A DNA stretch of 64,000 nucleotides from an uncultured Nitrososphaerota archaeon (GCA_963799845.1 CAWCYI010000006.1:544001-608000); one strand, 5' to 3'. Numbered from the stretch's first letter, positions 6,637 through 25,559 are shown. Numbers and translations are program-made. The notes: generated by a model not told the origin, from the sequence alone.

Positions 6637-6796
6637 CCTAAACCTACAGTGTACGATTCCTCATGCAAGGAAAATCATCTTTTTGGTAAACGAGACATGA
6701 TATACGCATCGAAGAAAAAATCAAGTCGACATCCGTTTTGAAACCACCTTGAGTATTCGCCAATAATGAAAGAGACCAAGTTTTAGGGGGATGAGA

Positions 6797-7009
6797 TTAC
6801 TTTCTCTTTTCCTTAAGATAAGATTTTCCATAGAATGAAATGGTAAATTTGTCTCCGACTCTGAAGACATATCCCTTTGTTATTAGTTGACTGAGTGTTG
6901 AGCTACACTCTAGTTCAGAGAATTTTGTTAATTCGCTAATTCTTGGAAGCGTAGCACTACCATAAAGATCCAAGACTTTCAAGATTTCAAGCTCGGATTC
7001 AACGTCCAA
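6797..7009 (-). CDS. Small winged-helix DNA-binding protein
   Basis: 70 aa with ELEILKVL..ATLPRISELT..LSQLITKGYV..FTISFYG wHTH pattern; divergent from KaiC. Confidence 0.75.
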   Translation of the reverse strand: MDVESELEILKVLDLYGSATLPRISELTKFSELECSSTLSQLITKGYVFRVGDKFTISFYGKSYLKEKRK

Positions 7010-7060
7010 TTTTCATTCTGTTACGAATTATCCAGTCAGAAGATAACTCGTTGGATTACA

Positions 7061-7110
7061 AAGTTTCCGAAGTGGTAGGAAGTTTACGAATCATAACAAA
7101 GTTTACGAAG
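7061..7110. promoter_or_regulatory. Three direct repeats AAGTTTMCGAA at exact 19-bp period
   Basis: Copies start at 7061, 7080 and 7099, in the divergent wHTH/KaiC intergenic region just upstream of TTAATA. Confidence 0.7.
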
Positions 7111-7137
7111 TAAGCCAATCTCTTAATACTCCAGATC

Positions 7138-8721
7138 TTGGTTCATTCATCTGAATTGCTTCATGGTTCACAGGCGGAATTAACTAAATCTCGTGAACAA
7201 GTTCCAACCGGCGTCGCTGGATTAGATGATTTGATCGAAGGAGGTCTGCCTGCTCGTAGCATGGTTGTTCTGGGAGGACGACCGGGCACGGGAAAGACCT
7301 TGTTAGCAGCGCGGTTCTTGTATGAAGGAGCAACCCATGATGAACCATCGGTTTATGTTTCATTTGCCGAGAGCAAAGCACAATTCCTGTCAAACATGGC
7401 AAAGTTTGGTTTTGATTTTCAAAAGTTAATTAATACTGGAAAGTTCGAATTTATAGATCTCACAACTGTAGCTGGAGAAGCTGTCTCTGAAGCTCTGGAC
7501 TTGATTCTAAGTCAGCTGACTGAGATGAGGGCAAAGAGGCTTGTCGTCGATTCGTTCACAGCTCTTGCTCAGGGGTTTGAAAAGGTGATAGACGCAAGGA
7601 TTGCGCTTCATGTCATTCTAGGAAGGCTTGTAAGGGAAGAAGGTTGTACCACATTGCTTCTGGTAGAGATGCCATTTGGAACAGACAAAATTGGTCTTGG
7701 TATTGAAGAGTTTGTCGCAGATGGTATTATCATGCTGGATTTCGTGAACCACAAAGGAGGACCCCAACGAACGATCAACATCAAGAAGATGCGCGGCACT
7801 CAAATCAGGCTGGATACCAGCACTTATTCGATTTCTTCGAAAGATAGTTTTCTAGTGTTCCCAGCTATCGAGCTGTCCATGAAGCAAGGTTTGGGAGACA
7901 GCAGAATTCCGACACACATTCCAGGATTTGATGAACTGATAGAGGGCGGTTTTCTCGAAAGGAGTGTCTCGGCGTTGACGGGCGTCGCGGGAACTGGAAA
8001 GACAACATTTGCACTGGAGTACATTTACAATGGAGCAAAAGACGAGGACGAGAAGGGGCTTTTCATCTCTTACGGAGAGTCGAAGGATCAGCTTGAAGTG
8101 ATCGCGCGGAAATTGAGCATGAATAAATTAGACGAGATGACTAAAGAGGGTCTCGTCACAATCGCCGGCATTATTCCGGAGAAAGCTTCAATCGAAGCGC
8201 ATGTGGTCGAAGTGCAAAGATTAATCTCCGAAACAAATGCAAAGAGAGTTGTTCTCGATGACGTAACTGGACTGCAGGCAATTTGCACAGACGACGAGTT
8301 TTACTTTTTGATGAAAAATCTAACACAGCTAGCAAAATCGAAGGGAGCGACTGTGTTGTTAACTCTCACGACGAATGAACTTGCAGGATTTTCAATTACG
8401 GGAAAGGGTCTTTCGACTGTTATGGATAACATCATTTTGATGCGATATGTTGAGGTCGAGGGTCGTATGGATAGATCGATGATTTTGCTAAAGATGCGCG
8501 GGACAATGCATGATAACACTATCAAGAAATTCAGCATACGCACGGGAGGAATTGTAATGGAAGGAAGCTTTGTAGGATACATTGGGATACTTTCCAGTTC
8601 TGCAAGAAAAAGCATCGAAAAGTTTGAAGAATCGGAAAGAGAAATAGCAAAACAAGAAAGTGATGCTAGATCAAAAAGAAGGCAAGCCTTCGACCAGAAA
8701 ATGAAAGACGAAGCCCATTAG
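7138..8721 (+). CDS. Double-domain KaiC-like (RAD55/KaiC) ATPase
   Basis: Two Walker A motifs (GRPGTGKT, GVAGTGKT) and two KMRG arginine fingers. CI has EEFVADG and CII has LSTVMDNII. Confidence 0.92.
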   Translation: MVHSSELLHGSQAELTKSREQVPTGVAGLDDLIEGGLPARSMVVLGGRPGTGKTLLAARFLYEGATHDEPSVYVSFAESKAQFLSNMAKFGFDFQKLINTGKFEFIDLTTVAGEAVSEALDLILSQLTEMRAKRLVVDSFTALAQGFEKVIDARIALHVILGRLVREEGCTTLLLVEMPFGTDKIGLGIEEFVADGIIMLDFVNHKGGPQRTINIKKMRGTQIRLDTSTYSISSKDSFLVFPAIELSMKQGLGDSRIPTHIPGFDELIEGGFLERSVSALTGVAGTGKTTFALEYIYNGAKDEDEKGLFISYGESKDQLEVIARKLSMNKLDEMTKEGLVTIAGIIPEKASIEAHVVEVQRLISETNAKRVVLDDVTGLQAICTDDEFYFLMKNLTQLAKSKGATVLLTLTTNELAGFSITGKGLSTVMDNIILMRYVEVEGRMDRSMILLKMRGTMHDNTIKKFSIRTGGIVMEGSFVGYIGILSSSARKSIEKFEESEREIAKQESDARSKRRQAFDQKMKDEAH

Positions 8722-8860
8722 TTACCAAACCGCAGGAACTCGAAAGCCTGTCAGCATAACGCCACTCTCGGGGGCAAAAATTATAGAGAGCGATGCTTGT
8801 ACGGCAATCTAAGTGCGAGTCTAGACCGTTGGTGATTTAGCCGTTCAGGAATTTAGGGTA

Positions 8861-9172
8861 ATGTATTCCGAGGCGTTAACGTATGGATTTTTGGCTTTGG
8901 GTAGACAACTTGCAAATGTGGTGAGTGATTATCTGGCAAGAAAATACGATCTGACTCCGGTTGAAACATACAAGAATCCAAAACTGATCTATGAAGCCCT
9001 CGAGAAAAGCTTAGGATATGGCTCCATTATTATTGAGACGAGGATAATAAAATCCCTATATTCACAACTTTCTTTGCCTATGGAAGGCCAGCCAAGGATA
9101 CGAATGGGTCATCCTGAAGATTTCGAGAAATACGTCTTTGAGCTTCAAGCAAAAGTTCAAGGAAGCTCTTGA
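8861..9172 (+). CDS. Small KaiC-associated protein (DUF3227-like)
   Basis: ALEKSLGYGSIIIETRIIKSLY resembles small helical proteins often encoded next to archaeal KaiC; the family call is from recall. Confidence 0.6.
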   Translation: MYSEALTYGFLALGRQLANVVSDYLARKYDLTPVETYKNPKLIYEALEKSLGYGSIIIETRIIKSLYSQLSLPMEGQPRIRMGHPEDFEKYVFELQAKVQGSS

Positions 9173-9239
9173 GATCTTGGCGAAGTCGCATTTCTACTCA
9201 ATGAGTATCAATAGGGCGTTTCTACGATGATGTAGCGTA

Positions 9240-9812
9240 TCAATTCCGTTTCGATCTTATAGCTATTATGGTGCAACCCAGCTGCGACACCTGCGTATCA
9301 GTCTGCATCTCCAGGAATGAAGATAGAATACCAGAGAGGTATTCTGACAAGAATATCGACCACTTCATTCCAAAAGAATGCCTAACGTTGATTTCAAGAT
9401 GGCCGTCATCTTCATCGATCAGTATGTTCGTCTCGCCGATGTTGGAATTAGATGATAGAGTTTCAAGAAAATCCATAACTGTCTCGAAGTTGATTTTTTG
9501 ATACCGAAATTTGAGAAAGTTATGTGCCGATACCAAAGATGAGCTTCTGGCAATTTCGATTAATCTATCTTCGCTCATCTCATCCAAAAAAGATGTGAAT
9601 ATTTCCCTATCAATTGTAAGAAATGATGTTCCTATGCCTATGTACTGGCCCCATTCAATGTGTCTACGAAGTATTTGGCTTACGAGGCTGCTCGGAGTAA
9701 TGCCGATCTTCTTAGCTTTGGTCGCTATCGCAGCATCCAAATTCTCCTCGATCTTGTACGCTCTGGTGACCTTCTTTCGTCCTTGTTTCAGACTTCCCTC
9801 GCGAAGTACCAA
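9240..9812 (-). CDS. Ribbon-helix-helix protein with V4R-like C-terminal domain
   Basis: N-terminal KVTRAYKIEENLDAAI..SLVSQILRRHIEW RHH pattern; C-terminal HSFGMKWSIFL. Confidence 0.7.
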   Translation of the reverse strand: MVLREGSLKQGRKKVTRAYKIEENLDAAIATKAKKIGITPSSLVSQILRRHIEWGQYIGIGTSFLTIDREIFTSFLDEMSEDRLIEIARSSSLVSAHNFLKFRYQKINFETVMDFLETLSSNSNIGETNILIDEDDGHLEINVRHSFGMKWSIFLSEYLSGILSSFLEMQTDTQVSQLGCTIIAIRSKRN

Positions 9813-10589: not shown

Positions 10590-11066
10590 TTACGCAACCG
10601 GCATTAGTACTCTGTCTATTGGGTAAATTACACCATTGCTGGCTTCGATGTTAGACTTTGTTACTTTTGCATCGTTTACAAACATGCTTTTCTGGATAGT
10701 TCCTTGCGTCTTGAGCGTGACTGAAGATCCTTGCATAGTCTGTACGCTTGGGGTCCTCTTGTCGCCTGTCAAATCGTGGAATTCATTCTCAGTGATCTTG
10801 TGGTCGATTATGTGGTAGGTGACGACGTTCCTCAATTTTGAGGGGTCCTTCATCCATCCGTCCACTGTTCCAGTCGGAAGACTTCTGAATGCATCATCTG
10901 TTGGAGCGAAGACTGTAAATGGTCCCTGACTGTTTAGTGTGTCTGCGAGTGCTGAAACCTCGATCGCCTGAACCAGTGTCTTAAAATCTTCATTTGATTT
11001 TGCTTGGTTTAGGATAGATCGCGACATCTGTTGCTCATTCATTGTGGTTGCTGTTGTGCTTGTCAT
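10590..11066 (-). CDS. Fasciclin (FAS1) domain protein 1
   Basis: Motifs GPFTVFAPTDDAF, YHII and ASNGVIYPIDRVL. Start is placed at the ATG at 11066, downstream of the TATA element. Confidence 0.92.
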   Translation of the reverse strand: MTSTTATTMNEQQMSRSILNQAKSNEDFKTLVQAIEVSALADTLNSQGPFTVFAPTDDAFRSLPTGTVDGWMKDPSKLRNVVTYHIIDHKITENEFHDLTGDKRTPSVQTMQGSSVTLKTQGTIQKSMFVNDAKVTKSNIEASNGVIYPIDRVLMPVA

Positions 11067-11081
11067 TCGAATTTCACAGTA

Positions 11082-11107
11082 TGTAATAGGCATTACGTAC
11101 TATATAC
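11082..11107 (-). promoter_or_regulatory. Promoter block GTATATAGTACGTAATGCCTATTACA
   Basis: Identical 26-bp copy at 24699..24724 (+); 17/20 match at 15549..15568 (+). Confidence 0.75.
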
Positions 11108-11340
11108 GTCTATGTAATCGATGTATCAAAAGAAGTGCAAAGGAACCAGTGGCTTACCTAATTCGGAAAAATGAACTCCTGAATTAAGGTCTGTCAAGTT
11201 CCAATTTTGGGCTTTCTTCGAACTCAAGTTAGGAAAAGACATTGAACAAGGCGGGATCGATCCAGAGATTACTTCTGTTCGTGGATTACTCCCTCAAATT
11301 TATCAATAATCGGCACAGCAAAACTTTCTAGGCAGCTAGC

Positions 11341-12267
11341 ATGAATTTCACAACGCACGTTATGTTCGGAGTACTGTTGGCGGCCGTATTCTTTGGCAAG
11401 CCTGAGATAATCCTCCTAGTAGCGATTGGTTCGGCGATTCCAGACTTGGACAGAGAATACGGTTTTCTAAGCAAGGAAACCTTTCGCAACGCAGAGGTCC
11501 ATCGAGCTCTATTCCATAACTTCTTGTTTCTCGGATTGCTCTGTCTGATCAATCCATTCCTCGCTCTTGGCGCTTTTCTGCACACATTTCTTGATGCTCT
11601 GACGACGGCCAGAGATAGAGGCGTCGAATGGCTTTTTCCGTTTTCGAGGTTTGTCAAAAGAGCTGCATATGATAACGATGGGAATCGCTTGGATCTCGAT
11701 CCCAATGAGAAAATATACTTCCTTCAAAATGAGATACATATCTTGACAAAGAAGACCACAAAGGACTTGAAACCAAGTGGGCCTTTATTGCCGTGGCGCA
11801 GAACTTACGGTCCGGCATTGTCCGGACGGCTGCTTGATCTGGGTATCTTTGTGGGTTCTCTCGGACTTACGCTTTTGCTTCTTCTCTTTTCTGTTCTTGG
11901 TTTTCACCAGTTCATAGATTTGGCAATCCTTCCTTCTGGACCAGCCTTTTACCTTCCACTCTTGCTCGGCGCCGCCGGGATCATAGTGAACTTTGTCGGG
12001 GGAGAGATTGACAGAAAGAAGCTTGCTAAAAACTTCAAACCTGATCATCTTTACAAGTTCTTTTTTTACCTTTCAACCGGAGACATGATACTCGCAGTAG
12101 CCCTCGGGGCAATAATGAATCCCGAAATCGTGATCTCAACGATGAGAATGATCCCATATATTGCAGCTGGTGTTGCCCTTGTCTTTCTCGTCTCTTTCGT
12201 CATATTGAAAATTTATTCCGCAAAGCCTCTGCCACTGGACGAGACGAAGGAACCGACAATAATTTGA
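11341..12267 (+). CDS. Membrane-bound metal-dependent hydrolase (YdjM/DUF457-like)
   Basis: Motifs TH, IPDLD, HRALFH and HTFLD..T..GVEWLFPF; multiple TM segments. Confidence 0.85.
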   Translation: MNFTTHVMFGVLLAAVFFGKPEIILLVAIGSAIPDLDREYGFLSKETFRNAEVHRALFHNFLFLGLLCLINPFLALGAFLHTFLDALTTARDRGVEWLFPFSRFVKRAAYDNDGNRLDLDPNEKIYFLQNEIHILTKKTTKDLKPSGPLLPWRRTYGPALSGRLLDLGIFVGSLGLTLLLLLFSVLGFHQFIDLAILPSGPAFYLPLLLGAAGIIVNFVGGEIDRKKLAKNFKPDHLYKFFFYLSTGDMILAVALGAIMNPEIVISTMRMIPYIAAGVALVFLVSFVILKIYSAKPLPLDETKEPTII

Positions 12268-12556: not shown

Positions 12557-12934
12557 ATGTTTCTAGAAGTCGTTAAACTGGTAGTGAATACCATCCTTAA
12601 TGGTGGAGTAAAAGACTCTAATGTTTCAGACCTATCCCTAGAAGTCAAAGAAAAAATGGGTACATATACCCTCGGCATTGGCTCAACGATAGTCCTAGAA
12701 TCCAAAAAGGTGCTAACGCCAAAAGAAAAAAGAAGAAAAAACCTGATCATATCGTTAATAATATCATTGATTTTCATGATTGGGCTCTCTACCATTGGTG
12801 CTTGGCTCCCGGACGCTCAGGCTGGTCTAGGGAGAACATTGATTTTACTGAGTGAAATACCAGCGTTTGCGTACAGTCTTATAAGCACGAGATTCTTGAT
12901 GAAAAAAGCATCGCGCCGTAAAGCTACCAACTGA
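12557..12934 (+). CDS. Hypothetical membrane protein A1 (beta-hairpin module + 2 TM)
   Basis: Clear paralog of 14863..15216 (LSLE.KE, NLII, LPDA, GRTL..LSE.P, ISTR). Confidence 0.75.
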   Translation: MFLEVVKLVVNTILNGGVKDSNVSDLSLEVKEKMGTYTLGIGSTIVLESKKVLTPKEKRRKNLIISLIISLIFMIGLSTIGAWLPDAQAGLGRTLILLSEIPAFAYSLISTRFLMKKASRRKATN

Positions 12935-13044
12935 CGCTATCCAAACTTCACCTCAAAGAAAATCCTTTGCAGTAAGCGTAGAGAGATTGGACTGATGCGA
13001 GGATCGATATCGGGCACGGAAATTGTTCCCTTGATTCGATCGGT

Positions 13045-13527
13045 CTATTTGCCCGTTGCCGGAAAAGATGCAAAGTAATTTGAAGAGCTTTTCCGTCCGA
13101 TTGTCTCTATCACTTCGGTCCAGACCACGTCTCTCACGCCTCTCATGGCCTTCACATCTTCAAGCAGATTGAGCAAAACGCCGTTATCCTTTACGAAGAC
13201 TTCGACACGCAAATCGATTGTGTGTTCTCCGATTGTTCTTGCCGCGTACACTACCTCGTCACGCTTCAAAAGCTCCTTTCCGAGCTCAATTGTAGCGCCC
13301 CCTGTGGTATATATGAGAAGATCCACTCTCCTATATCCGAACTTCATCGGATCAAGCGCGTAAGTTTTTATGAGATAGTCAGACTCAAGTCTTTTCCGCG
13401 CTCTCTGAACAGTGCTCAAGGGGACTCCGAGTTCCAGAGAGATTTCATGCGTTGGCATTTTTCCTTCAGAGCCAAGCAGGAGCCGTAGAATCTTGCCATC
13501 TGTTTCTGAGAATTGCGAAATCATCAT
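13045..13527 (-). CDS. Lrp/AsnC family transcriptional regulator 1
   Basis: HTH EISLELGVPLSTVQRARKRLE plus RAM domain; paralog of the ORFs at 16446 and 23784. Confidence 0.9.
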   Translation of the reverse strand: MMISQFSETDGKILRLLLGSEGKMPTHEISLELGVPLSTVQRARKRLESDYLIKTYALDPMKFGYRRVDLLIYTTGGATIELGKELLKRDEVVYAARTIGEHTIDLRVEVFVKDNGVLLNLLEDVKAMRGVRDVVWTEVIETIGRKSSSNYFASFPATGK

Positions 13528-14048
13528 GAATTCTTACCTCTTTCAAACATCTAATGCCAACGGCTCAAAATTGTCATTGAAAGTGCGTTGCATCTATTGC
13601 ACTGCACAGTAAATTGAATTCCAGCGCCCATCTCCTTGAGTTCCTTAACGTTCCACTCGTGTGAGAGATAGTGATCAGCCAAGGCTTTAGGATTCTGTTG
13701 CACTTCCATCTGGACCTCTGAAAGCTTTGGAATCGAACATTGCGTTATTTTTCCGGAATTGTGATACTCTGGCGTTATCAATTTTTAGACTATCTTGATA
13801 GCAGCACGGCTTGAATGAAAGCTAGGAGTTCAATAATCGTCCGAAAAAAGAGATAATCCGCATAAATTGAATCCTAGATGAATAGAAATAGGATTAAGTC
13901 TCGGTCTATTTGGGCAATTTGTTCATTTCAATGATTCGTTTTGGCAATAGACTAATCTTCCTCTCTCGAACGGAGTTTTCCCCTGCTCCTGGTAGGGACT
14001 TACTAAACTTGCCAGAACCTAAGATAAGAAATGGATGCCATTCATATG

Positions 14049-14354
14049 TTACTGGTTTGCTTGAACTTGTGAAGAAGTTTCTAGAGTTCCAACAAGCGTC
14101 ATCAAGTCCTCTTTGCTAGTCTTTAACGCGACTTTGTCTCCTATTCCCTGCACGTGCGTCACATCAATTGGAATATGCGTACTGCGGAAGACTTTCCTCA
14201 TCTCGAACTCTTTAGCCACGTCTCCATCAAGCTGGACATCCAAAGATCCAATCTTCCAAGTCTTTTCATCGAACATTACGTTCTTTACTGTCCCTATCAC
14301 CCAGCCATTTAGTCCAATCACTTCTTTGTCCATCAAGTCAAGTATGTTCATCAT
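14049..14354 (-). CDS. PRC-barrel domain protein 2
   Basis: DLMDKEVIGLNG..IGTVKNVMFDEKTWKI..L..IP...VQGIGD.V pattern. Confidence 0.88.
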   Translation of the reverse strand: MMNILDLMDKEVIGLNGWVIGTVKNVMFDEKTWKIGSLDVQLDGDVAKEFEMRKVFRSTHIPIDVTHVQGIGDKVALKTSKEDLMTLVGTLETSSQVQANQ

Positions 14355-14486
14355 TTACCAAGCTCAGCCCTCAGTTGATCCTCGCTATCGGATAAGGCTT
14401 ACTCTCTTCCAATTTGTTCAGGACAAGTCTAGAACTGCTAACAAGCTAAAACGGATCTCCGGATGTCTTCTTGTCGGAGTGATCTG

Positions 14487-14771: not shown

Positions 14772-14862
14772 TTAGGAACTCACTTTGCGTTGAAACTTGC
14801 CGTCCGATAAGGCTTTGGAATGGGAGTCATTCGAGTGATGCGACGTCATCCAAATTAAGGGA

Positions 14863-15838: not shown

Positions 15839-15888
15839 ACTGAATCATTTGCTGGGATTAACGGATAAACAAGAGAAGATAGAGTAGC

Positions 15889-17372: not shown

Positions 17373-17413
17373 GATCCTACGCGGTCTGATCAACACAGGT
17401 AATGTGAAAATTT

Positions 17414-18025
17414 ATGGCAACAATAAATCAGCAGATGTCAGATATACTAGATACAGCAAAGTCAATTGGTGACTTCAAAATGCTTATGCGAGTAGTAGAG
17501 GGAGCAGGTCTTGCAGACACTCTAAAGAGTCAGGGCCCTTTCACAGTGTTCGCTCCTACAGACGAAGCATTCAGGAATCTTCCAACTGGAGAATTGGATG
17601 AATGGTTGAGAGATCCTTCAAAGTTGAGGAGCATAGTCACCTATCACATCGTTGATCGCAAGATCGATGAGAATGAATTTCACAGGTTGACTGCAGATAG
17701 GAGAACCCCAAGTGTAATGACGATGCAAGGATCATCAGTCGTGATCAAGACCCATGGGACCCTATCAAAAACAATGTTCGTAAACGATGCGAAAGTAATC
17801 AAGTCTGACATTCTAACCACTAATGGTGTAATTTACATCATTGACAGAGTACTCGAGCCTGCGCCTGCAGCTCAAGCGCCTATGACCGCAGCTCCACAAA
17901 CAAAGAGTGAAGCCACGGCTCCGACTCCAGAAACCGCCACTCCGGCTCCTCAAACCACAACTCGAAACGAGTCGACGACAACTACTACGACTACAACAAC
18001 GAATCCTCCAAATCCGACCTCCTGA
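17414..18025 (+). CDS. Fasciclin (FAS1) domain protein 2 with Thr/Pro-rich tail
   Basis: Motifs GPFTVFAPTDEAF and TTNGVIYIIDRVL; paralog of 10590..11066. Confidence 0.92.
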   Translation: MATINQQMSDILDTAKSIGDFKMLMRVVEGAGLADTLKSQGPFTVFAPTDEAFRNLPTGELDEWLRDPSKLRSIVTYHIVDRKIDENEFHRLTADRRTPSVMTMQGSSVVIKTHGTLSKTMFVNDAKVIKSDILTTNGVIYIIDRVLEPAPAAQAPMTAAPQTKSEATAPTPETATPAPQTTTRNESTTTTTTTTTNPPNPTS

Positions 18026-18083: not shown

Positions 18084-18395
18084 CAACATCACTTCACTCC
18101 TGAGATACAACTTCTGTCTGCTGGGACCCAGAATTGACGCCTGAAAAACCAAGTTCACTTTTGCAATCGTGGAAATATCAGAAAAAAGAGGGGAGGTACT
18201 TCAAACAAATACCTCCGATGGAAATCAAGTACTTTAGCCTTAGATTCTCTTTCTAGCCTTCCCGACCTCTTTCTGCACCCTACCCCTGACTTGCTCCATC
18301 TTTCCTTTTACTTGTTGGCTCTTGTTATTCGTAATTTTTCCAACCGCTTCGCGGGCCTTTCCCTTAGTATTCTCTCTTTCGCCTTCTCTGATTTG

Positions 18396-19433
18396 TCTCT
18401 TTTCCGACAATTATTTCGCAAGCTGGTAAACAGGAGTAGACTGGGAGAGTTTTGGAAGAGCGTAACAAAGCGTTACGAGAAACATGTGCCCGCGAAGTCT
18501 TGATAGCGACAAGATCAGTTACCTCTTCAGAGCTAGAGAAAGGGGCGAGACCTGCGCAAACATTGCTCTCCAGCTCGGGGTGTCAAAGAGGAGGGTTGAG
18601 CAGATACTTGCCCAGCATAGGAAAGGTGGGGGTGTGCCTCTCCTCCTCAAGAAACCAGGAAGGAAAAGCATTCCAATTACCGACGAGGAAACTTCACTCG
18701 TCATTGATGCTTATCAGAGATATAGGGCAAACGCCCTCTACCTTGAACGAAAGATCGAGTGCGATAGCAAGATTCACATCAACCACAACAGGATACACAG
18801 GGTGCTCCTGATGAACTCCTTTGCGTCAAACTCTAGGAAGAAGTGGATAAGGAGGAAGTGGGTCAGATACGAGAGGGAGCACTCGAATTCATTATGGCAT
18901 ACGGACTGGCACGAGGTAAAGGATCCGAGGTGGAAGGGCAAGTGGCTCACCTGCTATGAGGATGATGCTTCTCGTCTCATTACCGGATTTGGGGTCCATG
19001 AAACGCTGACCTCGGAGTACTCTGTTTCCTGTCTTGAGAGCGCCATGAAGGAACACGGCAAACCTGCATCGATCCTATCCGACCACGGAACCACATTTTA
19101 CACGATGGAATCTGAGAGGAGGGAGAAGGGGATGACAGAATTCGAGAGGTGTCTCTTGAAGCACAAGATAAGATTCATCCTCGGAAGAGTCAACCACCCC
19201 CAGACGAACGGCAAGATCGAGAAGTTCTTCGACATATTCGAGAGTAAGATCAAGTGGTTCTCCTCGATAGATGAGTTCATGAAGTGGTACAATGAAGTGA
19301 GGCCTCATGGAGCCCTTGACCTCAAGACGCCAACCCAGGCTTACTACGAGAAGATGCCGCAGTTAGATGCTCTTGAATATCCTTTGTCTATGGAGGTCTC
19401 CTGACAGATGCGAAATGATTTCTGGAAAAAACA
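18396..19433 (+). mobile_element. IS481-family insertion sequence, copy 1 (1038 bp, 14-bp TSD CCTTCTCTGATTTG)
   Basis: Imperfect IRs TCTCTTTTCCGACAATTATTTCGCA / TGCGAAATGATTTCTGGAAAAAACA; TSD at 18382-18395 and 19434-19447. Confidence 0.93.
18484..19404 (+). CDS. IS481-family DDE transposase
   Basis: Motifs WHTD, DDASR, SDHG, HPQTNGKIE and YNEVRPH. Confidence 0.93.
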   Translation: MCPRSLDSDKISYLFRARERGETCANIALQLGVSKRRVEQILAQHRKGGGVPLLLKKPGRKSIPITDEETSLVIDAYQRYRANALYLERKIECDSKIHINHNRIHRVLLMNSFASNSRKKWIRRKWVRYEREHSNSLWHTDWHEVKDPRWKGKWLTCYEDDASRLITGFGVHETLTSEYSVSCLESAMKEHGKPASILSDHGTTFYTMESERREKGMTEFERCLLKHKIRFILGRVNHPQTNGKIEKFFDIFESKIKWFSSIDEFMKWYNEVRPHGALDLKTPTQAYYEKMPQLDALEYPLSMEVS

Positions 19434-19655
19434 CCTTCTCTGATTTGTTTAGACATTATGGAATCATTGAGAGTTCAGCGCAAGTGAGTATTAATGGGAT
19501 TTCGCCAGCATTGTGATTCAAATGCGCTTTCTTAGTCATTCTGGAGACGCTTAATGACCTTTGCTTCAAGCTTTAGGGCATTTGCTGGGCGATTCGTTAT
19601 CATAGCACGAGAGCAGTTTACACACCAAGGAAATGAAAGAGAAAGGTAAATTGAC

Positions 19656-20072
19656 ATGAGCACAGCCCCAGAAGATCTAAAGAACATACTTGGACCAAAC
19701 GAGCAGGTACAGATCTATATCAAGCAGAAATTTTATCATCCAAAGATCAATATCGACTCGGTCGTCATAACAAACGAAAGAATAATTCTGAGACATCCCC
19801 ATGCCCTCACACTGAAAAAAGATTATACTGATTTCAATTATCAAGATATTTCAAACGTCGTGTTGAACAAGGGAATCATTAGATCAACTGTAAATTGCAC
19901 ACTTCGATTCGGCGGAGATGCGTTATCGCTAGCTTCCTTGCGCAATTCGGAGGCAGAGAAGGCCTATGGTTTAATCAGAGAGAATCTCGTCCGATACCAG
20001 TCGCCACTCACTGCACGATCAGAGGGAGTCCCTTCTCTCCAGGCCGTGCCAGGAACAACTCCCCGAACGTGA
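19656..20072 (+). CDS. Bacterial-type PH domain protein
   Basis: ILGPNEQV...VVITNERII...DFNYQDISNV pattern. Confidence 0.8.
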   Translation: MSTAPEDLKNILGPNEQVQIYIKQKFYHPKINIDSVVITNERIILRHPHALTLKKDYTDFNYQDISNVVLNKGIIRSTVNCTLRFGGDALSLASLRNSEAEKAYGLIRENLVRYQSPLTARSEGVPSLQAVPGTTPRT

Positions 20073-20428
20073 AGCAACGATAGGTTCCGAAATGAGCGGT
20101 AATCCGACGATTCGCGTCATGCAGCATTTCACTGCGATTTCATTAGCACATGATTTGACGGCGAAAGAGTTCGAGACGGTGTAGAAAGATGGTCCAGATT
20201 GTAAAAGAAAAAGCAGAAGGCAATTCGAAACTAAAACCAAAAAACTTCCTGAGTTAGCCTTTGAGAGCGGTGAGAAGGGGCACGAAAACGAGGGCGGACA
20301 TGAAATGCCTAGAGAAGGAAAGCCCTTTCGACAACAGGGCATATTGATTATCCTGTTCACAAAATCACTTCAATTTGAACTTCTGACCTTTATAGAAAGA
20401 AGTACTTCTACTAAATGTTGAGAAATTT

Positions 20429-20710
20429 ATGACAACCTTGGTTACAGACAATGAAGTAGAGCCGGAAAGAAGTTCCGGCGATTCGGCGGGTCAATCAGAG
20501 GACTCTGAACCTAAGGTCGGTCTGAAGCAGCACCTCTCAAACTACAGTAATCAGGTTCAAGATTACCTAGACAAGGTTGACGCGAAAATTGACGGATTCA
20601 AGTTCACGTTAGAGAAACACGGCGAAGGACTCACGGTAGATCTTTCATTCAGGGCAACATTACACCCAAAAAATGCAAAGACCGCTGAGAAAACTGAGAA
20701 AGAAGTCTGA
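20429..20710 (+). CDS. Hypothetical small protein B2 (amphipathic helix + beta-hairpin)
   Basis: Paralog of 15587..15838; preceded by TTGAAC-N7-CTTTATA. Confidence 0.8.
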   Translation: MTTLVTDNEVEPERSSGDSAGQSEDSEPKVGLKQHLSNYSNQVQDYLDKVDAKIDGFKFTLEKHGEGLTVDLSFRATLHPKNAKTAEKTEKEV

Positions 20711-20943
20711 GTCCGACTCTAGCACAACAAAGAAACTTGCCCGGCGCAGTCCGTTACTAAGCCACGTCCACTCAATCAAATAGGAGAATCTATTCACGTA
20801 CAAATTCCTGTTTCGAAAACATTGGACGTCAGTGAAAAATATTGGCCTTTTGAGTAGATCTCTCGATCTCGTTCAAGCATTCGAGAAAGAGACTACTTTC
20901 CTATCCGTCAAGTAATCTCGAACTCAGATGCGCCGTGAGTCTG

Positions 20944-21273
20944 TCAGACGATGAAGCCAATGATTATGCCTATTACAAGGCCGATACTAAGAGGTATGAT
21001 CCCAAGGAAGATGGCCACGTAGGTCGCCGCAACCGGTCCATAAGTGGTTATTAGATTTTTTACTCCTGATTCGAGGCTGGCGAGGCTGACAAAGCCGAAG
21101 TAAGACGCCACGAGTGCGACGACGATCAGTATTATCGCGATCATTAGTGCTTTCCTGATAAAGTACCCTATGATTATTCCAATGATTAGAGGGATTGCCA
21201 TCACAACAAGTGAAGGAATTCCCCCGCCAAAGGTTCCACCTATTAAGTGAAAAATGTCATTGATTAGTGTCAA
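20944..21273 (-). CDS. Small hydrophobic membrane protein, FUN14-like
   Basis: GIIIGYFIRKAL.IAII..., 3 hydrophobic segments and a C-terminal GLVIGIIIG; the family call is from recall. Confidence 0.7.
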   Translation of the reverse strand: MTLINDIFHLIGGTFGGGIPSLVVMAIPLIIGIIIGYFIRKALMIAIILIVVALVASYFGFVSLASLESGVKNLITTYGPVAATYVAIFLGIIPLSIGLVIGIIIGFIV

Positions 21274-21416
21274 AGCTATCTACTTCCACTCGATTCCCGT
21301 TGATTGCTAGTCTGCCTTCTCATCGTATAACGTTTTCTCGCGGGTCTAATCAGTGATTTCCCTAGTTGGGTTTTTGTTAATTGTTTCCTTACCATGTTAC
21401 ATTCACTCTTCAAGGA

Positions 21417-21539
21417 TCAAAGGTGCAGGCCAGCGAAGCCGAAGTACGCAAGAACGATGATTACAACGACGGCAATTATTATGACTTCGAGAGACCCCAT
21501 CCCAGACTTGCTATTATTTTTCTTCAATAAGAATCTCAT
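21417..21539 (-). CDS. 40-aa pilin-like/class III signal-like membrane micropeptide 2 (not in ORF track)
   Basis: MRFLLKKNNSKSGMGSLEVIIIAVVVIIVLAYFGFAGLHL; Gly-1 and Glu+5 arrangement. Confidence 0.8.
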   Translation of the reverse strand: MRFLLKKNNSKSGMGSLEVIIIAVVVIIVLAYFGFAGLHL

Positions 21540-22659: not shown

Positions 22660-23497
22660 TTACGGAATAATTGGCGAAACGGCTTGTTCCTCTTGTTCTT
22701 GCTTGTCTTTCGGGGGAGCAATTAACGGCGCTACATTTGGTTGGAGCGATCCGGCACCTGCGGTTGGCATATTGGTAGGGACCAACATCAAAGTTCCGCG
22801 GCCCTGCAGGCCTCAGCTCGTATAAGATATTCATCCATCGGAGCTCCATAGCTCTTGGATTCGCAGAATACAAGTTTGCAGCGTCGACCATCTTTTGCGC
22901 TGCCTGAAATTCCGCCTCAGCTAAAGTAATCCTCGCTCTTCGCTCTCTTTCTGCTTGAGCCTGTCTTGACATCGCTTCTTGAAGGGCCGCAGGAGTGGTA
23001 ATGTCCCTGATTTCGACAGCAGTAACCTTAACCCCCCAGTTTTCCGTTTTCAAGTCAATAATCTCTCGAGCTGATGCGCCTATCTTTTCCCTTTCATAGA
23101 GCAGATTATTGAAGCTAACCCCACCGATTGTCTCTCGAAGTGTGGTTTGGGCTGCAAGTTGAGTTGCCATACTGTAATTTTCCACATTCAGCGTTGCCTT
23201 CTCGACATCAACAGGCTGGTAGTACATCACGGCATCTACGTTTACCGGAACGTTGTCACGGGTAAATGTTTGCTCGGTCTTGAAAGTCAACACCTGCAAC
23301 CGGGTTGAAATGATGTAGGGAACCTTGCTAATGAATGGTGGAACGTAGATTATCCCAGGGCCTTTCAGACCCCTATAGCGGCCCAGAGTTAATAGCGGTG
23401 CTCTTTCCCACTCACGGAGAATCTTGATGCCTGAAAGAAAAATGCCCAAAACCAAGATGGCGATGACCCCCACTAATGCAAGACTGATAATGCTCAA
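22660..23497 (-). CDS. SPFH/stomatin (slipin) family protein (frameshift near 22814)
   Basis: Motifs TRDNVPVNVDAV, WGVKVTAVEIRD and AMSRQAQAERERRA. Removing one base restores the C-terminus GLQGRGTLMLVP...SPIIP. Confidence 0.9.
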
Positions 23498-23711: not shown

Positions 23712-23783
23712 ACTATGAGAGACATGACAGTAATAAGATAGAATTAGAAAAGCACATATCTAATAAAACCCTTTCTGCAATCC

Positions 23784-24266
23784 ATGCCACTTTCTCAGCT
23801 CTCGGACCTTGATAGGCAAATTTTGAGACTCCTTGTAGAATCCGAGGGAAATATTCCGACTCACGAGATCTCGCAAGAGCTACGCATTCCACTGAGTACT
23901 GTACAAAGAAGACGAAAGAGACTTGAAGAAAACTATCTGATTCGGTATTATTCGCTTAATCTCCAAATGTTTGGATGGAGACGGATCGATCTCCTCATCG
24001 CCACAGAAGGCGGCGCTACCATTACTGTCGGAAAGGAACTATTAAAGCGAGATGAGGTAATTTTCGCGGCGAGAACAATTGGAGAGCATACAATAGACCT
24101 AAGAGTCGAGACACTCGTAAAAGACAACGGGGAATTACTCGATCTCTTAGAAGAAGTGAAGGCGATGAATGGAGTAAAAGACGTTGTTTGGACGGAGATA
24201 GTGGAGACGATAGGCCGAAAGAATCCGCCAAATGATTTTTCACGCTATTGGAAGAATCCGGAATAG
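23784..24266 (+). CDS. Lrp/AsnC family transcriptional regulator 3
   Basis: Close paralog of 13045..13527. Confidence 0.9.
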   Translation: MPLSQLSDLDRQILRLLVESEGNIPTHEISQELRIPLSTVQRRRKRLEENYLIRYYSLNLQMFGWRRIDLLIATEGGATITVGKELLKRDEVIFAARTIGEHTIDLRVETLVKDNGELLDLLEEVKAMNGVKDVVWTEIVETIGRKNPPNDFSRYWKNPE

Positions 24267-24324
24267 TAGCTTCCTAAGTTTCGAATCGATCAAAATTCAG
24301 CTTAAAGAGCAGGGTTTATTCTTC

Positions 24325-24543
24325 GTGTCAACAATTACCCAGAAGAAAATTTCCAACTGTCACTTCTTTCGAATTTCCTACTCAAATGGAAAGGAAAGAT
24401 GGGTTGCCTTCGACCCGCTCAAGGGACCGAAGTTGGCTGTTTCAGAGATGAAAAGGCTTGTACAAAAATCAGATTCCGAAGCAGGAACAAAACAACCAGG
24501 CGTTGTTTGGTATATGGGGAAATTAGCTTTGTGGAAGGTGTAA
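24325..24543 (+). CDS. Hypothetical small protein
   Basis: GTG-started 72-aa part of ORF 24232..24543; no recognisable family. Confidence 0.35.
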   Translation: MSTITQKKISNCHFFRISYSNGKERWVAFDPLKGPKLAVSEMKRLVQKSDSEAGTKQPGVVWYMGKLALWKV

Positions 24544-24698
24544 TTGCTCTCAAACAGTCTTGGTCATTGTAAAGGCGAATCCGAATTAAACCTAAGACTC
24601 CTCTAGATTTACTGATTCCAACACAGATAGTACTCAGCTAAAATTAGGTCAGAAAATGATCTTAAACTGGTAACAGGCAGTGCTAGTTCAACATAGGT

Positions 24699-24724
24699 GT
24701 ATATAGTACGTAATGCCTATTACA
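24699..24724 (+). promoter_or_regulatory. Duplicate of the fasciclin-1 promoter block
   Basis: 26-bp identity with 11082..11107 (reverse complement), continuing into GTGAAAATT..ATGACAA. Confidence 0.75.
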
Positions 24725-24867
24725 ACTAGTGAAAATTGCATGACAAAACAGCAACGGAATAAGCCTTCAGCAAGGCAGAATAATTTTGATAACTTTCCTA
24801 GTCGCAAACCGATTACCTATCGTGTAAAGCAGGTAGTTTGAATGATTTAGATGGATTGTGAAAGTGC

Positions 24868-25305
24868 ATGAATCTATTTCATAGGTCTAGACAGGAGACT
24901 GCAAAAGTACAGACAAGTAATGCTGTCCAGATGGGCATCTCGCCTTTGAAGAATCTCGTCATAAGCGATCCAAAGATGTTCGCTGCATTGCAGAATTTTC
25001 TGATCGTTGATCCGGAAAGACAAATACCGCTGCTCGACAGTGTCAGCACACTCCTAGCGAAGGGGGACGCAGCCAAAGCACAAGGAAACAGAATGACTGC
25101 TCGCGCAGATTACGAGATTGCCGCAAAGATTGAGATCTACAGACAAAACAAGGACAGCGCAAGGACATTTCTGGTATTAGCTGAAGGAGTCTCTGACAAA
25201 GGACAGCCTCACCACGAATATCAAGAAACAATGCTAGCTAATATGGACAAAGTCATGCGGATTTCGAATGAGTTCCAAGATTTTGTGCCCCATCAATTAA
25301 AGTGA
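24868..25305 (+). CDS. Hypothetical helical protein
   Basis: 145-aa ORF with a TPR-like Ala-rich helix pair. Confidence 0.65.
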   Translation: MNLFHRSRQETAKVQTSNAVQMGISPLKNLVISDPKMFAALQNFLIVDPERQIPLLDSVSTLLAKGDAAKAQGNRMTARADYEIAAKIEIYRQNKDSARTFLVLAEGVSDKGQPHHEYQETMLANMDKVMRISNEFQDFVPHQLK

Positions 25306-25559
25306 AAAAGCACTGACGGAATCAGCACTCGACAACATGCCCGATCCAAAGAAGAGTCGGGAACAAAAGGAAACGAAACGCGAAGAAATGAATGAAGAGG
25401 TTCACGATATTGAGGACACTGAGGAAGAGAAATTGTATGAAGAAGACTGGAACTCGGATGAGTCTGATTGAAAATAGTCCGGTCTACCCACTTGTTACGA
25501 GATCTTTGCACCTTTGACGCATAGAAACTATATTCAGTAGGGTGCAGAGATTTCATGAG

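What the first reader, a model, noticed from the sequence alone, without database searches (positions are those of the whole stretch)
6640..25500. Candidate undescribed archaeal general-stress/envelope regulon island behind tRNA-Thr
Seen: a ~19 kb, more AT-rich block with many paralogous sets (3 Lrp/AsnC, 2 fasciclins, 2 PRC-barrels, 2+2 beta-hairpin proteins, 2 micropeptides). It also has CsbD, SPFH, PH-domain, FUN14-like and YdjM-like genes, a KaiC module at the front, and shared promoter motifs. Known: CsbD, PRC-barrel, fasciclin and tiny membrane proteins are typical members of bacterial general-stress regulons (SigB/RpoS/EcfG), and archaea have no sigma factors. Inference: this is a sigma-independent stress/dormancy or desiccation programme run by the Lrp paralogs and the KaiC switch, building a membrane-associated structure.
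Basis: partly seen in the sequence, partly recalled or inferred. Interest (0 to 1): 0.85.

Follow-up and report, generated by a model that had tools for sequence, protein, structure and literature searches.

The report
Patchwork stress-gene region beside tRNA-Thr
A low-GC stretch of a soil archaeon's genome collects many small stress-type genes next to local regulators, and two of its genes carry the same promoter that drives the cell's chaperone genes, but it is a patchwork of separate modules and not one switchable programme.

Summary
The gene content is real. The block follows an intron-bearing tRNA-Thr(UGU) and holds a KaiC module, 3 Lrp/AsnC genes, 2 fasciclins, 2 PRC-barrels, CsbD, bPH, SPFH, YdjM, two paralogous pairs of unknown small proteins and two 40-aa peptides. 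GC is 43.4% against 47.4% for the genome.

It is not one unit. It lies at a synteny break and has no integrase or att repeat. An IS splits csbD, and SPFH changes frame. Its modules occur separately in relatives. No motif is shared across the 24 upstream regions tested.

Part of the stress reading holds. A discrete 34-nt promoter cassette has exactly 10 copies in the genome, 2 of them in the block (fasciclin-1; a 33-aa sORF plus a 145-aa helical protein). Elsewhere it precedes thermosome, Hsp20, a hemerythrin protein and a wHTH gene. Its core is the thermosome promoter in other Nitrososphaerales families. It co-occurs with a divergently encoded ACT-domain protein.

The block's small-protein families recur beside paralogs of an expanded Lrp subfamily (12 copies). 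The Lrps look like local, autoregulated regulators. Nothing supports KaiC as master switch or a membrane structure. Inducibility was not tested.

Verdict: a mosaic accessory region, partly wired into a chaperone-type regulon.

The parts
6528..6636 (+). tRNA-Thr(UGU) with a 34-nt intron (6556-6589); left edge of the variable region
   Evidence: Rfam tRNA 29.3 bits at 6571-6636, anticodon loop CUUGUAA. Exon and intron limits were read by eye. ARAGORN misses it. Metagenome contigs match only 6528-6636 and diverge on both sides.
6797..9812 (.). KaiC module: 70-aa wHTH (6797-7009 -), two-domain KaiC-like ATPase (7138-8721 +), 103-aa protein (8861-9172 +), 190-aa protein (9240-9812 -)
   Evidence: Pfam KaiC 334 bits and weak TrmB wHTH. 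NCBIfam circadian KaiC 329 bits, under the 408 cut-off. The same KaiC-103aa-190aa order, with an Lrp in place of the wHTH, is on G005:C58. The tRNA-wHTH-KaiC junction is kept on G003:C141.
10590..11066 (-). fasciclin-1; start most likely Met10 of the long ORF, 15 nt after the cassette
   Evidence: Pfam Fasciclin 128.8 bits. Start placed from the cassette layout. No hydrophobic N-terminus in a hydropathy scan.
11082..11115 (-). promoter cassette copy 1 (ACATAG-N3-TATATA-GTACGTAATGCCTATTACA)
   Evidence: PWM 56.8 bits. Only 10 sites in the genome score 38 bits or more; the next best scores 9.
11341..12267 (+). YdjM-family membrane protein
   Evidence: Pfam YdjM 49.3 bits. A 79% identical copy sits beside an Lrp and a PRC-barrel on G010:C200.
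12557..15216 (.). 125-aa 2-TM protein (12557-12934 +), Lrp-1 (13045-13527 -), PRC-barrel x2 (14049-14354 -, 14487-14771 -), 117-aa 2-TM paralog (14863-15216 -)
   Evidence: In G005, G006 and G010 the 125-aa and 117-aa homologs are an adjacent tandem pair. In G006 and G010 an 83-aa-family gene sits next to them.
15587..16011 (+). 83-aa helix plus beta-hairpin protein (15587-15838) and 40-aa TM peptide (15889-16011)
   Evidence: Paralogs of 20429-20710 and 21417-21539. AF2 model. A contig of an RNA library covers 15601-15854 with 1 mismatch.
16446..18025 (+). Lrp-2 (222 aa, 16446-17114) and fasciclin-2 (17414-18025, Thr/Pro-rich tail)
   Evidence: Pfam. Lrp-2 groups with G000 C8:67388 and G003:C44, support 100/99. 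An RNA-library contig covers 16464-16695 with 0 mismatches.
18240..19456 (-). csbD split by an IS: body 18240-18396, native start codon and first codons at 19434-19456
   Evidence: Pfam CsbD 49.5 bits. A 15-bp target duplication lies at 18382-18396 and 19434-19448, and MSKQIREG is readable to the right of the IS. G003's uninterrupted CsbD reads ..MSKQIRAGERER...
18397..19433 (+). IS element (rve-type transposase 18484-19404), about 11 near-identical copies in the genome
   Evidence: Pfam rve. Copies at 96-100% identity. Depth about 11-fold in metagenome contigs. Absent at this site on G003:C336.
19656..21539 (.). bPH_3 protein (19656-20072 +), 93-aa paralog of the 83-aa protein (20429-20710 +), 109-aa multi-TM protein (20944-21273 -), second 40-aa TM peptide (21417-21539 -)
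   Evidence: Same order on G003:C336.
22684..23497 (-). SPFH/Band 7 gene with a frame change near 22812
   Evidence: Pfam Band_7 119.6 bits. A paralog aligns in two frames. A metagenome contig lacks 1 nt at 22814. The gene is absent from this site on G003:C336.
23745..24266 (+). Lrp-3 (23784-24266), preceded at 23745-23762 by a degenerate TAGAAAA-N4-TTTTCTA palindrome
   Evidence: Pfam. The palindrome is shared with five out-of-block Lrp paralogs, 30-40 nt before their starts. 97% identical ortholog on G003:C336.
24691..25305 (+). promoter cassette copy 2 (24691-24724), 33-aa basic sORF (24740-24841), 145-aa all-helical protein (24868-25305)
   Evidence: PWM 54.6 bits. The same cassette-sORF-145aa layout is seen in G003 and in 3 of 14 metagenome contigs (L078, L080, L084). 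In G012 the 145-aa gene follows the cassette directly, with no sORF. AF2 pLDDT 85.4, 8 helices. No Pfam. No PDB fold match at E<=0.001.
25337..26549 (+). 44-aa acidic ORF and GNAT acetyltransferase; present in this genome, missing at this place in G003
   Evidence: Pfam Acetyltransf_1. G003:C336 passes from window ~25336 straight to ~26578.

Best explanation
The block is a real, lower-GC accessory region. It begins directly after an intron-bearing tRNA-Thr(UGU), at a place where gene order breaks down among relatives.

It is a mosaic of at least five small modules, not one unit:
1. wHTH-KaiC-103aa-190aa.
2. Fasciclin-1 and YdjM.
3. 125aa / Lrp-1 / PRC x2 / 117aa.
4. 83aa-peptide-Lrp-2-fasciclin-2-csbD.
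5. bPH-93aa-TM protein-peptide-(SPFH)-Lrp-3-sORF-145aa.

These modules occur separately in related genomes and at other places in this genome, usually beside a member of a lineage-specific Lrp/AsnC subfamily with 12 copies.

Most likely mechanism (inferred):
- Each Lrp paralog regulates itself and its immediate neighbours.
- The KaiC module is an independent signalling cassette.
- Two units, fasciclin-1 and the sORF plus 145-aa gene, are transcribed from copies of the lineage's thermosome-type promoter. They would therefore be expressed together with thermosome, Hsp20 and the other cassette genes.
- The best candidate factor for that promoter is a 236-aa ACT-domain protein encoded divergently from the thermosome promoter, outside the window. 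It is not the Lrps.

What is shown: gene content, composition, mosaic structure, the discreteness and spread of the cassette, and the co-location statistics. What is inferred: stress inducibility, who binds what, and any joint function.
For: Gene content: Pfam.

Composition: lowest 2.3% of 2,222 windows, in both coding and intergenic DNA.

Synteny break:
- The left flank up to the gene before the tRNA (window 6112-6429) is collinear in 6 of the 8 relatives' left-flank contigs examined (G003, G004, G006, G009, G010, G011). G001 and G007 match only as far as the 4852-5736 gene.
- One search finds the tRNA itself on those contigs in 6 of the 8; G004's and G011's are not listed.
- Downstream DNA differs in the four of these contigs that run past the tRNA (G009, G010, G011, and G001). 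G003 keeps tRNA-wHTH-KaiC. The G001 statement rests on an unpublished genome.

Mosaic structure:
- G003:C336 keeps csbD to the 145-aa gene without the IS, SPFH or GNAT.
- G005:C58 has Lrp-KaiC-103aa-190aa.
- G005:C165 has bPH plus the tandem 125aa/117aa pair plus a PRC-barrel.
- G010:C200 has Lrp-YdjM-PRC.
- The 83aa-117aa-125aa trio is on G006:C129 and G010:C119.

Lrp subfamily:
- 12 copies in G000. Found in 6 of 13 family genomes.
- The three block copies are not a clade.
- A palindrome stands before the starts of five out-of-block paralogs and, with 2 mismatches, before Lrp-3.
- 9 of 24 out-of-block paralogs of block proteins lie within 6 kb of an out-of-block Lrp; 0 of 20,000 random draws reach that.

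Cassette:
- Exactly 10 sites in 9.2 million positions, with nothing between 9 and 38 bits.
- 2 of the 10 lie in the block, which is 0.41% of the genome (binomial P=7e-4).
- Downstream genes are Hsp20, thermosome, hemerythrin, an HTH_45 wHTH, fasciclin and the 145-aa family.
- 26 sites in 7 of 13 family genomes; 0 in the reversed control.
- The core lies directly before the thermosome gene in four genomes of three other families.

ACT-domain protein: present in 5 of 5 other-family genomes with the core, and within 58-69 nt of it in 4 of them. Absent in 5 of 5 cassette-less family genomes. 50% identical between families.

No mobility signature: no integrase family in 25 of 25 block ORFs scanned, no repeat of the tRNA 3' end, no flanking direct repeats, and no meaningful PADLOC match.
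Against: - Only 2 of 24 upstream regions in the block carry the cassette. The other 22 share nothing detectable, so most of the block has no demonstrated regulatory link to stress.
- No call tests expression. Thermosome and Hsp20 promoters can also be strong constitutive promoters, so 'stress-induced' is inferred from gene identity.
- The only RNA evidence is two near-identical contigs from one RNA library. Such contigs can stem from DNA.
- Lrp-neighbour regulation rests on adjacency and on self-palindromes. No Lrp site was found in front of any non-Lrp gene of the block.
- The co-location statistics involve only three or four loci, and relatives are not independent.
- The genome is a metagenome assembly, 86.7% complete with 4.9% contamination. 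It differs from metagenome contigs by 1 nt at several places, so some 'broken' genes may be assembly errors.
- The relatives are fragmented, so the full extent of the block in G003 is not visible.
Confidence: 0.6

Rival explanations
1. One reading: the whole block is one sigma-independent stress, dormancy or desiccation programme. It would be run jointly by the three Lrp paralogs and the KaiC switch, and would build a membrane-associated structure.
For: - Several stress-type families lie together.
- The Lrp subfamily recurs beside the same families.
- Several products are small membrane proteins.
- Two units share a chaperone-type promoter.
Against: - No motif is shared across the 24 upstream regions. 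The cassette is on 2 units only.
- The modules are separable in relatives.
- The three Lrps belong to different subclades.
- csbD is split by an IS and SPFH changes frame.
- KaiC travels with its own partners elsewhere.
- Nothing indicates a common structure.
Confidence: 0.08
2. A horizontally acquired genomic island or degraded integrative element that inserted at tRNA-Thr and carries cargo of mixed origin.
For: - It lies directly 3' of a tRNA.
- GC is 4 points below the genome in coding and in intergenic DNA.
- Synteny breaks exactly there.
- The Lrp subfamily and the modules are patchily distributed among 13 family genomes.
- Contigs of G004 end at both borders.
Against: - No tyrosine or serine recombinase in 25 of 25 block ORFs scanned. 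The only DDE enzyme belongs to a multicopy IS.
- No copy of the tRNA 3' end and no flanking direct repeats.
- No phage or defence signature.
- The region predates the split of G000 and G003, and its paralogs are native to the genome.
Confidence: 0.12
3. A functionally incoherent 'junkyard' of lineage-specific small genes, duplicates and decaying copies. The stress-type names would be coincidental.
For: - Coding fraction is 62% and median gene length 125 aa, the 8th percentile.
- An IS lies in csbD and SPFH is frame-shifted.
- Several ORFs have low coding scores.
- Seven families have no annotation: no Pfam match for the 103-, 125-, 117-, 93-, 109- and 145-aa proteins, and only sub-threshold hits for the 190- and 83-aa proteins. 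None of the eight matches NCBIfam.
Against: - The modules are conserved in order and sequence across two genera.
- The unknown families are under selection: 48 homologs of the 145-aa protein and 19 of the 83-aa protein, and both give ordered AF2 models.
- Co-location with Lrp paralogs is far above chance.
- Two units carry a highly conserved promoter.
Confidence: 0.2

Closest known systems
Bacterial general stress regulons (SigB of Bacillus, EcfG/PhyR of Alphaproteobacteria); membership of CsbD- and PRC-barrel-type proteins is recalled, not taken from any call
   Same: The same kinds of small proteins lie together (CsbD, PRC-barrel, small membrane proteins). A subset of genes shares one promoter type.
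   Different: There is no sigma factor. Only 2 of 24 units share the promoter. That promoter is the thermosome or chaperone promoter, so the link is to a heat-shock-type set and not to a broad general-stress set. Members are dispersed over the genome and not confined to this block.
Phr/HSR1 heat-shock regulons of Euryarchaeota (as described in passages of PMC10653856)
   Same: A small set of genes including an sHsp shares a conserved element at the core promoter. An AAA+ (Cdc48) gene lies near cassette genes. A candidate regulator is encoded next to a target promoter.
   Different: According to that paper, the Phr and HSR1 regulons do not include the thermosome. Here the thermosome promoter is the prototype. 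The candidate regulator is an ACT-domain protein of unknown family. Homology to Phr was not tested. The same paper reports no conserved motif for Sulfolobus.
Archaeal Lrp/AsnC local and global regulators (general family knowledge, recalled)
   Same: wHTH plus a RAM-like domain. A palindrome lies close to the gene's own start in six paralogs. The genes sit next to candidate targets.
   Different: This is a lineage-specific expansion to 12 close paralogs at 57-78% identity. They sit beside stress-type small proteins and not beside amino-acid metabolism genes. Ligands and targets are unknown.
tRNA-linked genomic islands
   Same: It lies directly 3' of a tRNA, has atypical GC, and its content varies among relatives.
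   Different: There is no integrase, no att repeat and no mobility genes apart from an unrelated multicopy IS.

Membership tests
General stress regulon (shared-promoter definition) | A common promoter or operator upstream of the member genes | tested here: not met
   For the block as a whole, the cassette is on 2 of 24 upstream regions and no other enriched k-mer or dyad was found. The feature is met only for fasciclin-1 and the sORF plus 145-aa unit.
General stress regulon (shared-promoter definition) | Co-induction of members by stress | not testable with these tools
   Only contigs of one RNA library touch the block, at the 83-aa gene and Lrp-2. No condition series was available.
tRNA-integrated genomic island | Site-specific recombinase inside the element | tested here: not met
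   Pfam on 25 block ORFs gives no recombinase. The only related hit is an rve transposase of a multicopy IS.
tRNA-integrated genomic island | Direct repeat of the tRNA 3' end at the far border | tested here: not met
   The 30-nt tRNA 3' end has 1 match in the window, which is itself, at up to 3 mismatches. There are no flanking repeats.
tRNA-integrated genomic island | Atypical composition and variable presence among relatives | tested here: met
   GC is in the lowest 2.3% of windows. DNA after the tRNA differs in the G009, G010 and G011 contigs, and in unpublished G001.
Lrp/AsnC | N-terminal AsnC-type wHTH | tested here: met
   HTH_24 scores 26.7, 28.4 and 32.6 bits against a cut-off of 21.9.
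Lrp/AsnC | C-terminal RAM/AsnC_trans_reg domain | tested here: inconclusive
   Scores of 19.4, 24.3 and 21.4 bits are all under the cut-off of 25, but at the right position.
Circadian KaiC | Score above the equivalog cut-off | tested here: not met
   NF006799 scores 329 bits against a cut-off of 408. TIGR02655 scores 251 against 546. The two KaiC/RecA-type domains are present (Pfam 334 bits), so it is KaiC-like only.
CsbD | CsbD domain in an intact gene | tested here: inconclusive
   The domain scores 49.5 bits against a cut-off of 40. The native start is separated from the body by the IS.
FUN14 | Match to the family profile | tested here: not met
   No Pfam or NCBIfam match at E<=0.01 for 20944-21273. 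It is a multi-TM glycine-rich protein only.
Fasciclin (secreted adhesion type) | FAS1 domain | tested here: met
   128.8 and 121.8 bits.
Fasciclin (secreted adhesion type) | Signal peptide or membrane anchor | tested here: not met
   A hydropathy scan finds no hydrophobic N-terminal stretch in either protein. No dedicated signal-peptide predictor was available.
Phr/HSR1-type heat-shock regulon | Phr-family regulator and its binding motif | not tested
   No Phr sequence or profile was searched. The candidate regulator here matches only ACT_7 and no NCBIfam or PDB sequence.

The most novel reading that the evidence does not exclude
Nitrososphaerales would have a cis-element-defined chaperone or stress regulon. 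An order-wide thermosome promoter/operator (TATATAGTACGTAAT-N3-TATTAC) would be read by a divergently encoded ACT-domain protein. In one soil family it would have been copied, as a 34-55-nt cassette often with a basic leader sORF, in front of new genes: Hsp20, hemerythrin, a wHTH, fasciclin and a 145-aa helical protein. Together with an expanded Lrp subfamily that controls local small-protein modules, this would form a sigma-independent general stress network. The block would be its densest outpost. It would also be the first archaeal heat-shock-type regulon that includes the thermosome and grows by promoter copying.
Probability: 0.25. Interest if true: 0.8.

Novelty: new variant of a known kind. 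Interest (0 to 1): 0.55.

Why it matters
How archaea outside the Euryarchaeota regulate heat-shock and general stress genes is open. Passages of PMC10653856 say that only Phr and HSR1 are known, that their regulons lack the thermosome, and that Sulfolobus shows no conserved motif.

This work yields three things that can be taken straight to experiment:
- A discrete, strongly conserved promoter element shared by thermosome, Hsp20 and several unknown genes.
- A candidate regulator with a matching phyletic pattern.
- A list of new candidate regulon members: a cytoplasmic-looking fasciclin, a 145-aa helical protein and basic sORFs.

For the block itself the lesson is a caution. A dense cluster of stress-type names beside a tRNA is not by itself a regulon or an island.

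Tried and rejected
- the order-wide pattern scan used a mis-spaced pattern. The window's own genome gave 0 hits and the matches equalled the control. It was discarded and redone correctly. One search was an out-of-range parameter.
- amoA family search in the own genome: the control rang nowhere, so it says nothing.
- ESM Atlas on the 83-aa and 125-aa proteins: low recognition and no family.
- Complex prediction of the 125-aa protein with the 83-aa protein: no verdict, so no evidence either way.
- Foldseek against PDB: the 145-aa model has a best E of 0.18 (weak TPR-like and designed helical hits). The 83-aa model has a best E of 0.24. Neither gives an assignment.
- PADLOC on 10 block proteins: only weak P-loop or wHTH matches, so the defence-island idea was dropped.
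- NCBIfam on 10 block proteins: KaiC-like only.
- HTH_45 wHTH as the cassette factor: its family is in 13 of 13 family genomes, cassette-less ones included, so there is no phyletic signal.
- Lrp subfamily as the cassette factor: within the family it co-occurs (6 of 7 cassette genomes against 0 of 6 without). It is not found in 5 of 5 other-family genomes that keep the core promoter. Downgraded.
- Genome-contig scan with the 125/117-aa alignment: 1 locus only.
- The search of earlier findings: nothing held.
- Literature searches: no paper on such a cluster or on a thermosome promoter element in Nitrososphaerales. Only listings were seen, except passages of PMC10653856. Supplements were not consulted.
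- Parts of the block without cover in the RNA run X5 are not evidence of silence.

Full report
**Setting.** The window is G000:C6:544001-608000 of a 4.60-Mb, 9-contig assembly with 47.4% GC. The assembly is 86.7% complete with 4.9% contamination. Names that sources give to homologs read Nitrososphaerales or Thaumarchaeota archaeon. Near-identical DNA is held by soil metagenome runs of one study.

**Observation: what is confirmed.** I called genes with a codon-usage score trained on the genome's long ORFs and scanned 25 block ORFs against Pfam.
- Confirmed families: a two-domain KaiC-like ATPase, three Lrp/AsnC-type genes, two fasciclins, two PRC-barrels, CsbD, a bPH_3 protein, an SPFH protein and a YdjM protein.
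- tblastn against the whole genome confirms the paralogous pairs. The 125/117-aa 2-TM proteins are 41% identical. The 83/93-aa proteins are 54% identical over 50 aa. The 40-aa TM peptides are 65% identical.
- The AF2 model of the 83-aa family is one long helix followed by a beta-hairpin (pLDDT 73).
- The tRNA is missed by ARAGORN but reaches the Rfam threshold (29.3 bits). Read by eye, it is tRNA-Thr(UGU) at 6528-6636 with a 34-nt intron.
- The block's GC of 43.4% is in the lowest 2.3% of 2,222 windows of 19 kb. It is lower in coding and in intergenic DNA alike. Median gene length is 125 aa, the 8th percentile.

**Observation: what is not confirmed or was missed.**
- 'FUN14-like' has no profile support.
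- A 1,037-bp IS lies at 18397-19433. It has a 15-bp target duplication and about 11 near-identical copies in the genome. It sits inside the 5' end of csbD. The native start (MSKQIREG...) is readable on the far side of the IS, and G003 has the uninterrupted gene.
- SPFH changes frame near 22812. A metagenome contig differs there by one base, so this may be an assembly indel.

**Is it an island?**
- I examined 8 left-flank contigs from relatives. The flank is collinear up to the gene just before the tRNA (window 6112-6429) in 6 of them: G003, G004, G006, G009, G010 and G011. G001's and G007's match only as far as the 4852-5736 gene.
- The DNA search finds the tRNA itself on those contigs in 6 of the 8; G004's and G011's are not listed.
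- In the four contigs that run on past the tRNA, the downstream DNA matches neither the block nor its right flank. These are G009, G010, G011 and G001. The G001 statement rests on an unpublished genome.
- G003 keeps the tRNA-wHTH-KaiC junction at 81-88% protein identity.
- On the right, G003:C336 runs from the 145-aa gene directly to window ~26578. It lacks the 44-aa ORF and the GNAT gene. G003:C52 and G004:C279 continue with the MFS-side flank.
- So the variable region spans roughly 6637 to 26.6-27.4 kb and predates the split of G000 and G003.
- There is no recombinase, no second copy of the tRNA 3' end, no flanking direct repeats and no defence-system signature.

I read it as a flexible region at a synteny break, not as a recognisable integrative element.

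**Is it one unit?** No.
- G003:C336 carries csbD-bPH-93aa-TM-peptide-Lrp-3-sORF-145aa without the IS and without SPFH. It has unrelated DNA to the left of csbD.
- G005:C58 carries Lrp-KaiC-103aa-190aa. G005:C165 carries bPH, the tandem 125/117-aa pair and a PRC-barrel. G010:C200 carries Lrp-YdjM-PRC.
- The 125/117-aa genes are an adjacent tandem pair in the 3 relatives (of 12 searched) that have them. In G006 and G010 an 83-aa-family gene sits beside them.
- Inside the block, the fasciclin and Lrp pairs are old inverted duplicates at 70-74% nucleotide identity.

**The Lrp paralogs.**
- The genome has 12 close paralogs at 57-78% identity.
- At E<=1e-20 the subfamily is found in 6 of 13 family genomes: G000 12, G005 6, G003 3, G010 3, G012 1, and G001 1 (unpublished).
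- In a maximum-likelihood tree of 21 sequences the three block copies are not a clade. Lrp-3 pairs with its G003 ortholog (98/94). Lrp-2 groups with C8:67388 and G003:C44 (100/99). Lrp-1 sits in an unresolved group.
- Five out-of-block paralogs carry TAGAAAA-N4-TTTTCTA 30-40 nt before their start. Lrp-3 has a 2-mismatch version. Among sites with 0-1 mismatch the motif lies before Lrp genes only, apart from one site with no gene. This fits autoregulation and identifies no other target.
- Out-of-block paralogs of the block's small proteins cluster with out-of-block Lrps. 9 of 24 lie within 6 kb, and 0 of 20,000 random placements reach that. Examples: C4:768.7-771.4 kb holds Lrp, Lrp, PRC, a 145-aa-family gene and CsbD. 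C8:64-72 kb holds an ice-binding-like protein, an SRPBCC protein, Lrp, the 70-aa wHTH and CsbD.
- These involve only a few loci, and housekeeping genes surround them.

**Shared promoters.**
- An inverted repeat found by the repeat finder led to a 34-nt element: ACATAG-N3-TATATA-GTACGTAATGCCTATTACA.
- A weight matrix finds exactly 10 sites in the genome, scoring 38-57 bits. The next best position scores 9 bits.
- Two are in the block: one before fasciclin-1, and one before a 33-aa basic sORF followed by the 145-aa gene. With the block at 0.41% of the genome, P=7e-4.
- The other eight precede Hsp20, a thermosome gene behind a 41-aa sORF, a hemerythrin-domain protein, an HTH_45 wHTH, paralogs of the 145-aa family, and small ORFs.
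- In the family, 26 sites occur in 7 of 13 genomes, with 0 in the reversed control. They include two more thermosome genes and two more fasciclins.
- Of 14 metagenome contigs with an exact match, downstream genes include thermosome (2), the 145-aa family (3) and the wHTH (1).
- The rest of the block shares nothing. No 8-mer occurs in 4 or more of the 24 upstream regions. The best 6-mer (AGGTAA, 6 of 24, P=6e-5) misses the corrected threshold and looks like a ribosome-binding site. No dyad passes.

**Origin and likely reader of the cassette.**
- With up to 3 mismatches the full cassette occurs in 7 of 13 family genomes and in 2 of 138 other genomes of the order.
- Its core, TATATAGTACGTAAT-N3-TATTAC, lies directly before the thermosome gene in G094, G051, G030 and G039, which belong to three other families. 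So the cassette is an old thermosome promoter that one family copied to other genes.
- A 236-aa ACT_7-domain protein is encoded divergently, about 50 nt from the thermosome cassette, in G000, G003, G010 and G012. A 50% identical homolog sits beside a cassette-like site in G029.
- It is found in 5 of 5 other-family genomes with the core, within 58-69 nt of it in 4 of them. It is found in 0 of 5 cassette-less family genomes that are 85-96% complete.
- The Lrp subfamily co-occurs with the cassette inside the family (6 of 7 against 0 of 6). It is absent from those 5 other-family genomes. The HTH_45 family is everywhere.
- The ACT-domain protein is therefore the best candidate factor. It matches no NCBIfam model and no solved structure by sequence.
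- A TFB-paralog-specific core promoter remains an alternative. The conserved positions coincide with the BRE, TATA and initiator regions. That assignment is recalled, not taken from a call.

**Unknown proteins.**
- The 145-aa family has 48 homologs, all unnamed. The only taxon labels shown are Nitrososphaerales or Thaumarchaeota, and none has a Pfam match. Its model is confident and all-helical (pLDDT 85.4) with no significant PDB neighbour.
- The 83-aa family has 19 homologs.
- Atlas look-ups gave nothing.

**Expression.** One RNA library (peat) holds contigs identical or nearly identical to the 83-aa gene and to part of Lrp-2. This is a weak hint of transcription and says nothing about induction.

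**Literature.** Passages of PMC10653856 state three things. Phr and HSR1 of Euryarchaeota are the only known archaeal heat-shock factors. Their regulons lack the thermosome. Sulfolobus heat-shock promoters share no protein-binding motif. My searches (listings only) found no description of this cluster or of a thermosome promoter element in Nitrososphaerales. Supplements were not available.

**Verdict.** The block is a mosaic accessory region enriched in stress-type small proteins and local Lrp regulators. Two of its units belong to a promoter-defined chaperone-type regulon that is dispersed over the genome. A single Lrp/KaiC-run programme, a membrane structure and a mobile island are not supported.

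Noticed in passing
G000 C6:1187215-1189802 (outside the window); L053, L060, L062, L020, L066, L093-L095: The thermosome gene is preceded by the cassette and a short basic sORF. It is flanked by a divergent 236-aa ACT_7-domain gene. The core promoter and this gene co-occur across several families of the order and are both missing from 5 cassette-less family genomes.
   Followed up: partly
window 24740-24841; L028, L029, L031, L034, L036, L043, L072, L081: Conserved basic sORFs of 32-49 aa (types MTKQQRN.., MRI[EQ]QR.., LRNTLQTRTS..) directly follow many cassette copies in several genomes. They could be leader peptides or small proteins.
   Followed up: partly
window 18397-19433 and 35621-36657: There are two copies in the window of a 1,037-bp IS with an rve transposase, and about 11 copies in the genome at 96-100% identity. 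The first has a 15-bp target duplication and splits csbD.
   Followed up: yes
window 22814, 24298, 18498; G000 C8:68943-69937; C6:431341; C8:67388: Metagenome contigs differ from the assembly by single-base indels at three window positions. Elsewhere a PGK gene is split in two ORFs, and two Lrp paralogs carry an in-frame stop. These may be assembly indels or real pseudogenes.
   Followed up: partly
window 6528-6636: tRNA-Thr(UGU) has a 34-nt intron between the D-arm and the anticodon stem. ARAGORN does not find it, and Rfam scores only the 3' part.
   Followed up: partly
L064 523-1589; L065 25-1093: A three-gene module (83-aa family, 117-aa and 125-aa 2-TM proteins) is conserved in two genera. 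The hairpin of the 83-aa family and the N-terminal part of the TM proteins show a similar strand pattern by eye.
   Followed up: partly
G000 C8:66321-67127 (L069 4324-5127): An ice-binding-like protein (Pfam 218.7 bits) lies directly beside an Lrp paralog, with an SRPBCC protein, a 70-aa wHTH paralog and a CsbD paralog nearby.
   Followed up: no
G000 C4:1925000-1940000 (L071): A second dense cassette locus holds three cassette copies, Cdc48, a hemerythrin protein, an SPFH paralog and a 149-aa TFIIB-repeat ORF (possibly a TFB fragment).
   Followed up: partly
window 10590-11066 and 17414-18025: Neither fasciclin has a hydrophobic N-terminus. The second has a long Thr/Pro-rich tail. This is unusual for a domain usually found on secreted or anchored proteins.
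   Followed up: no
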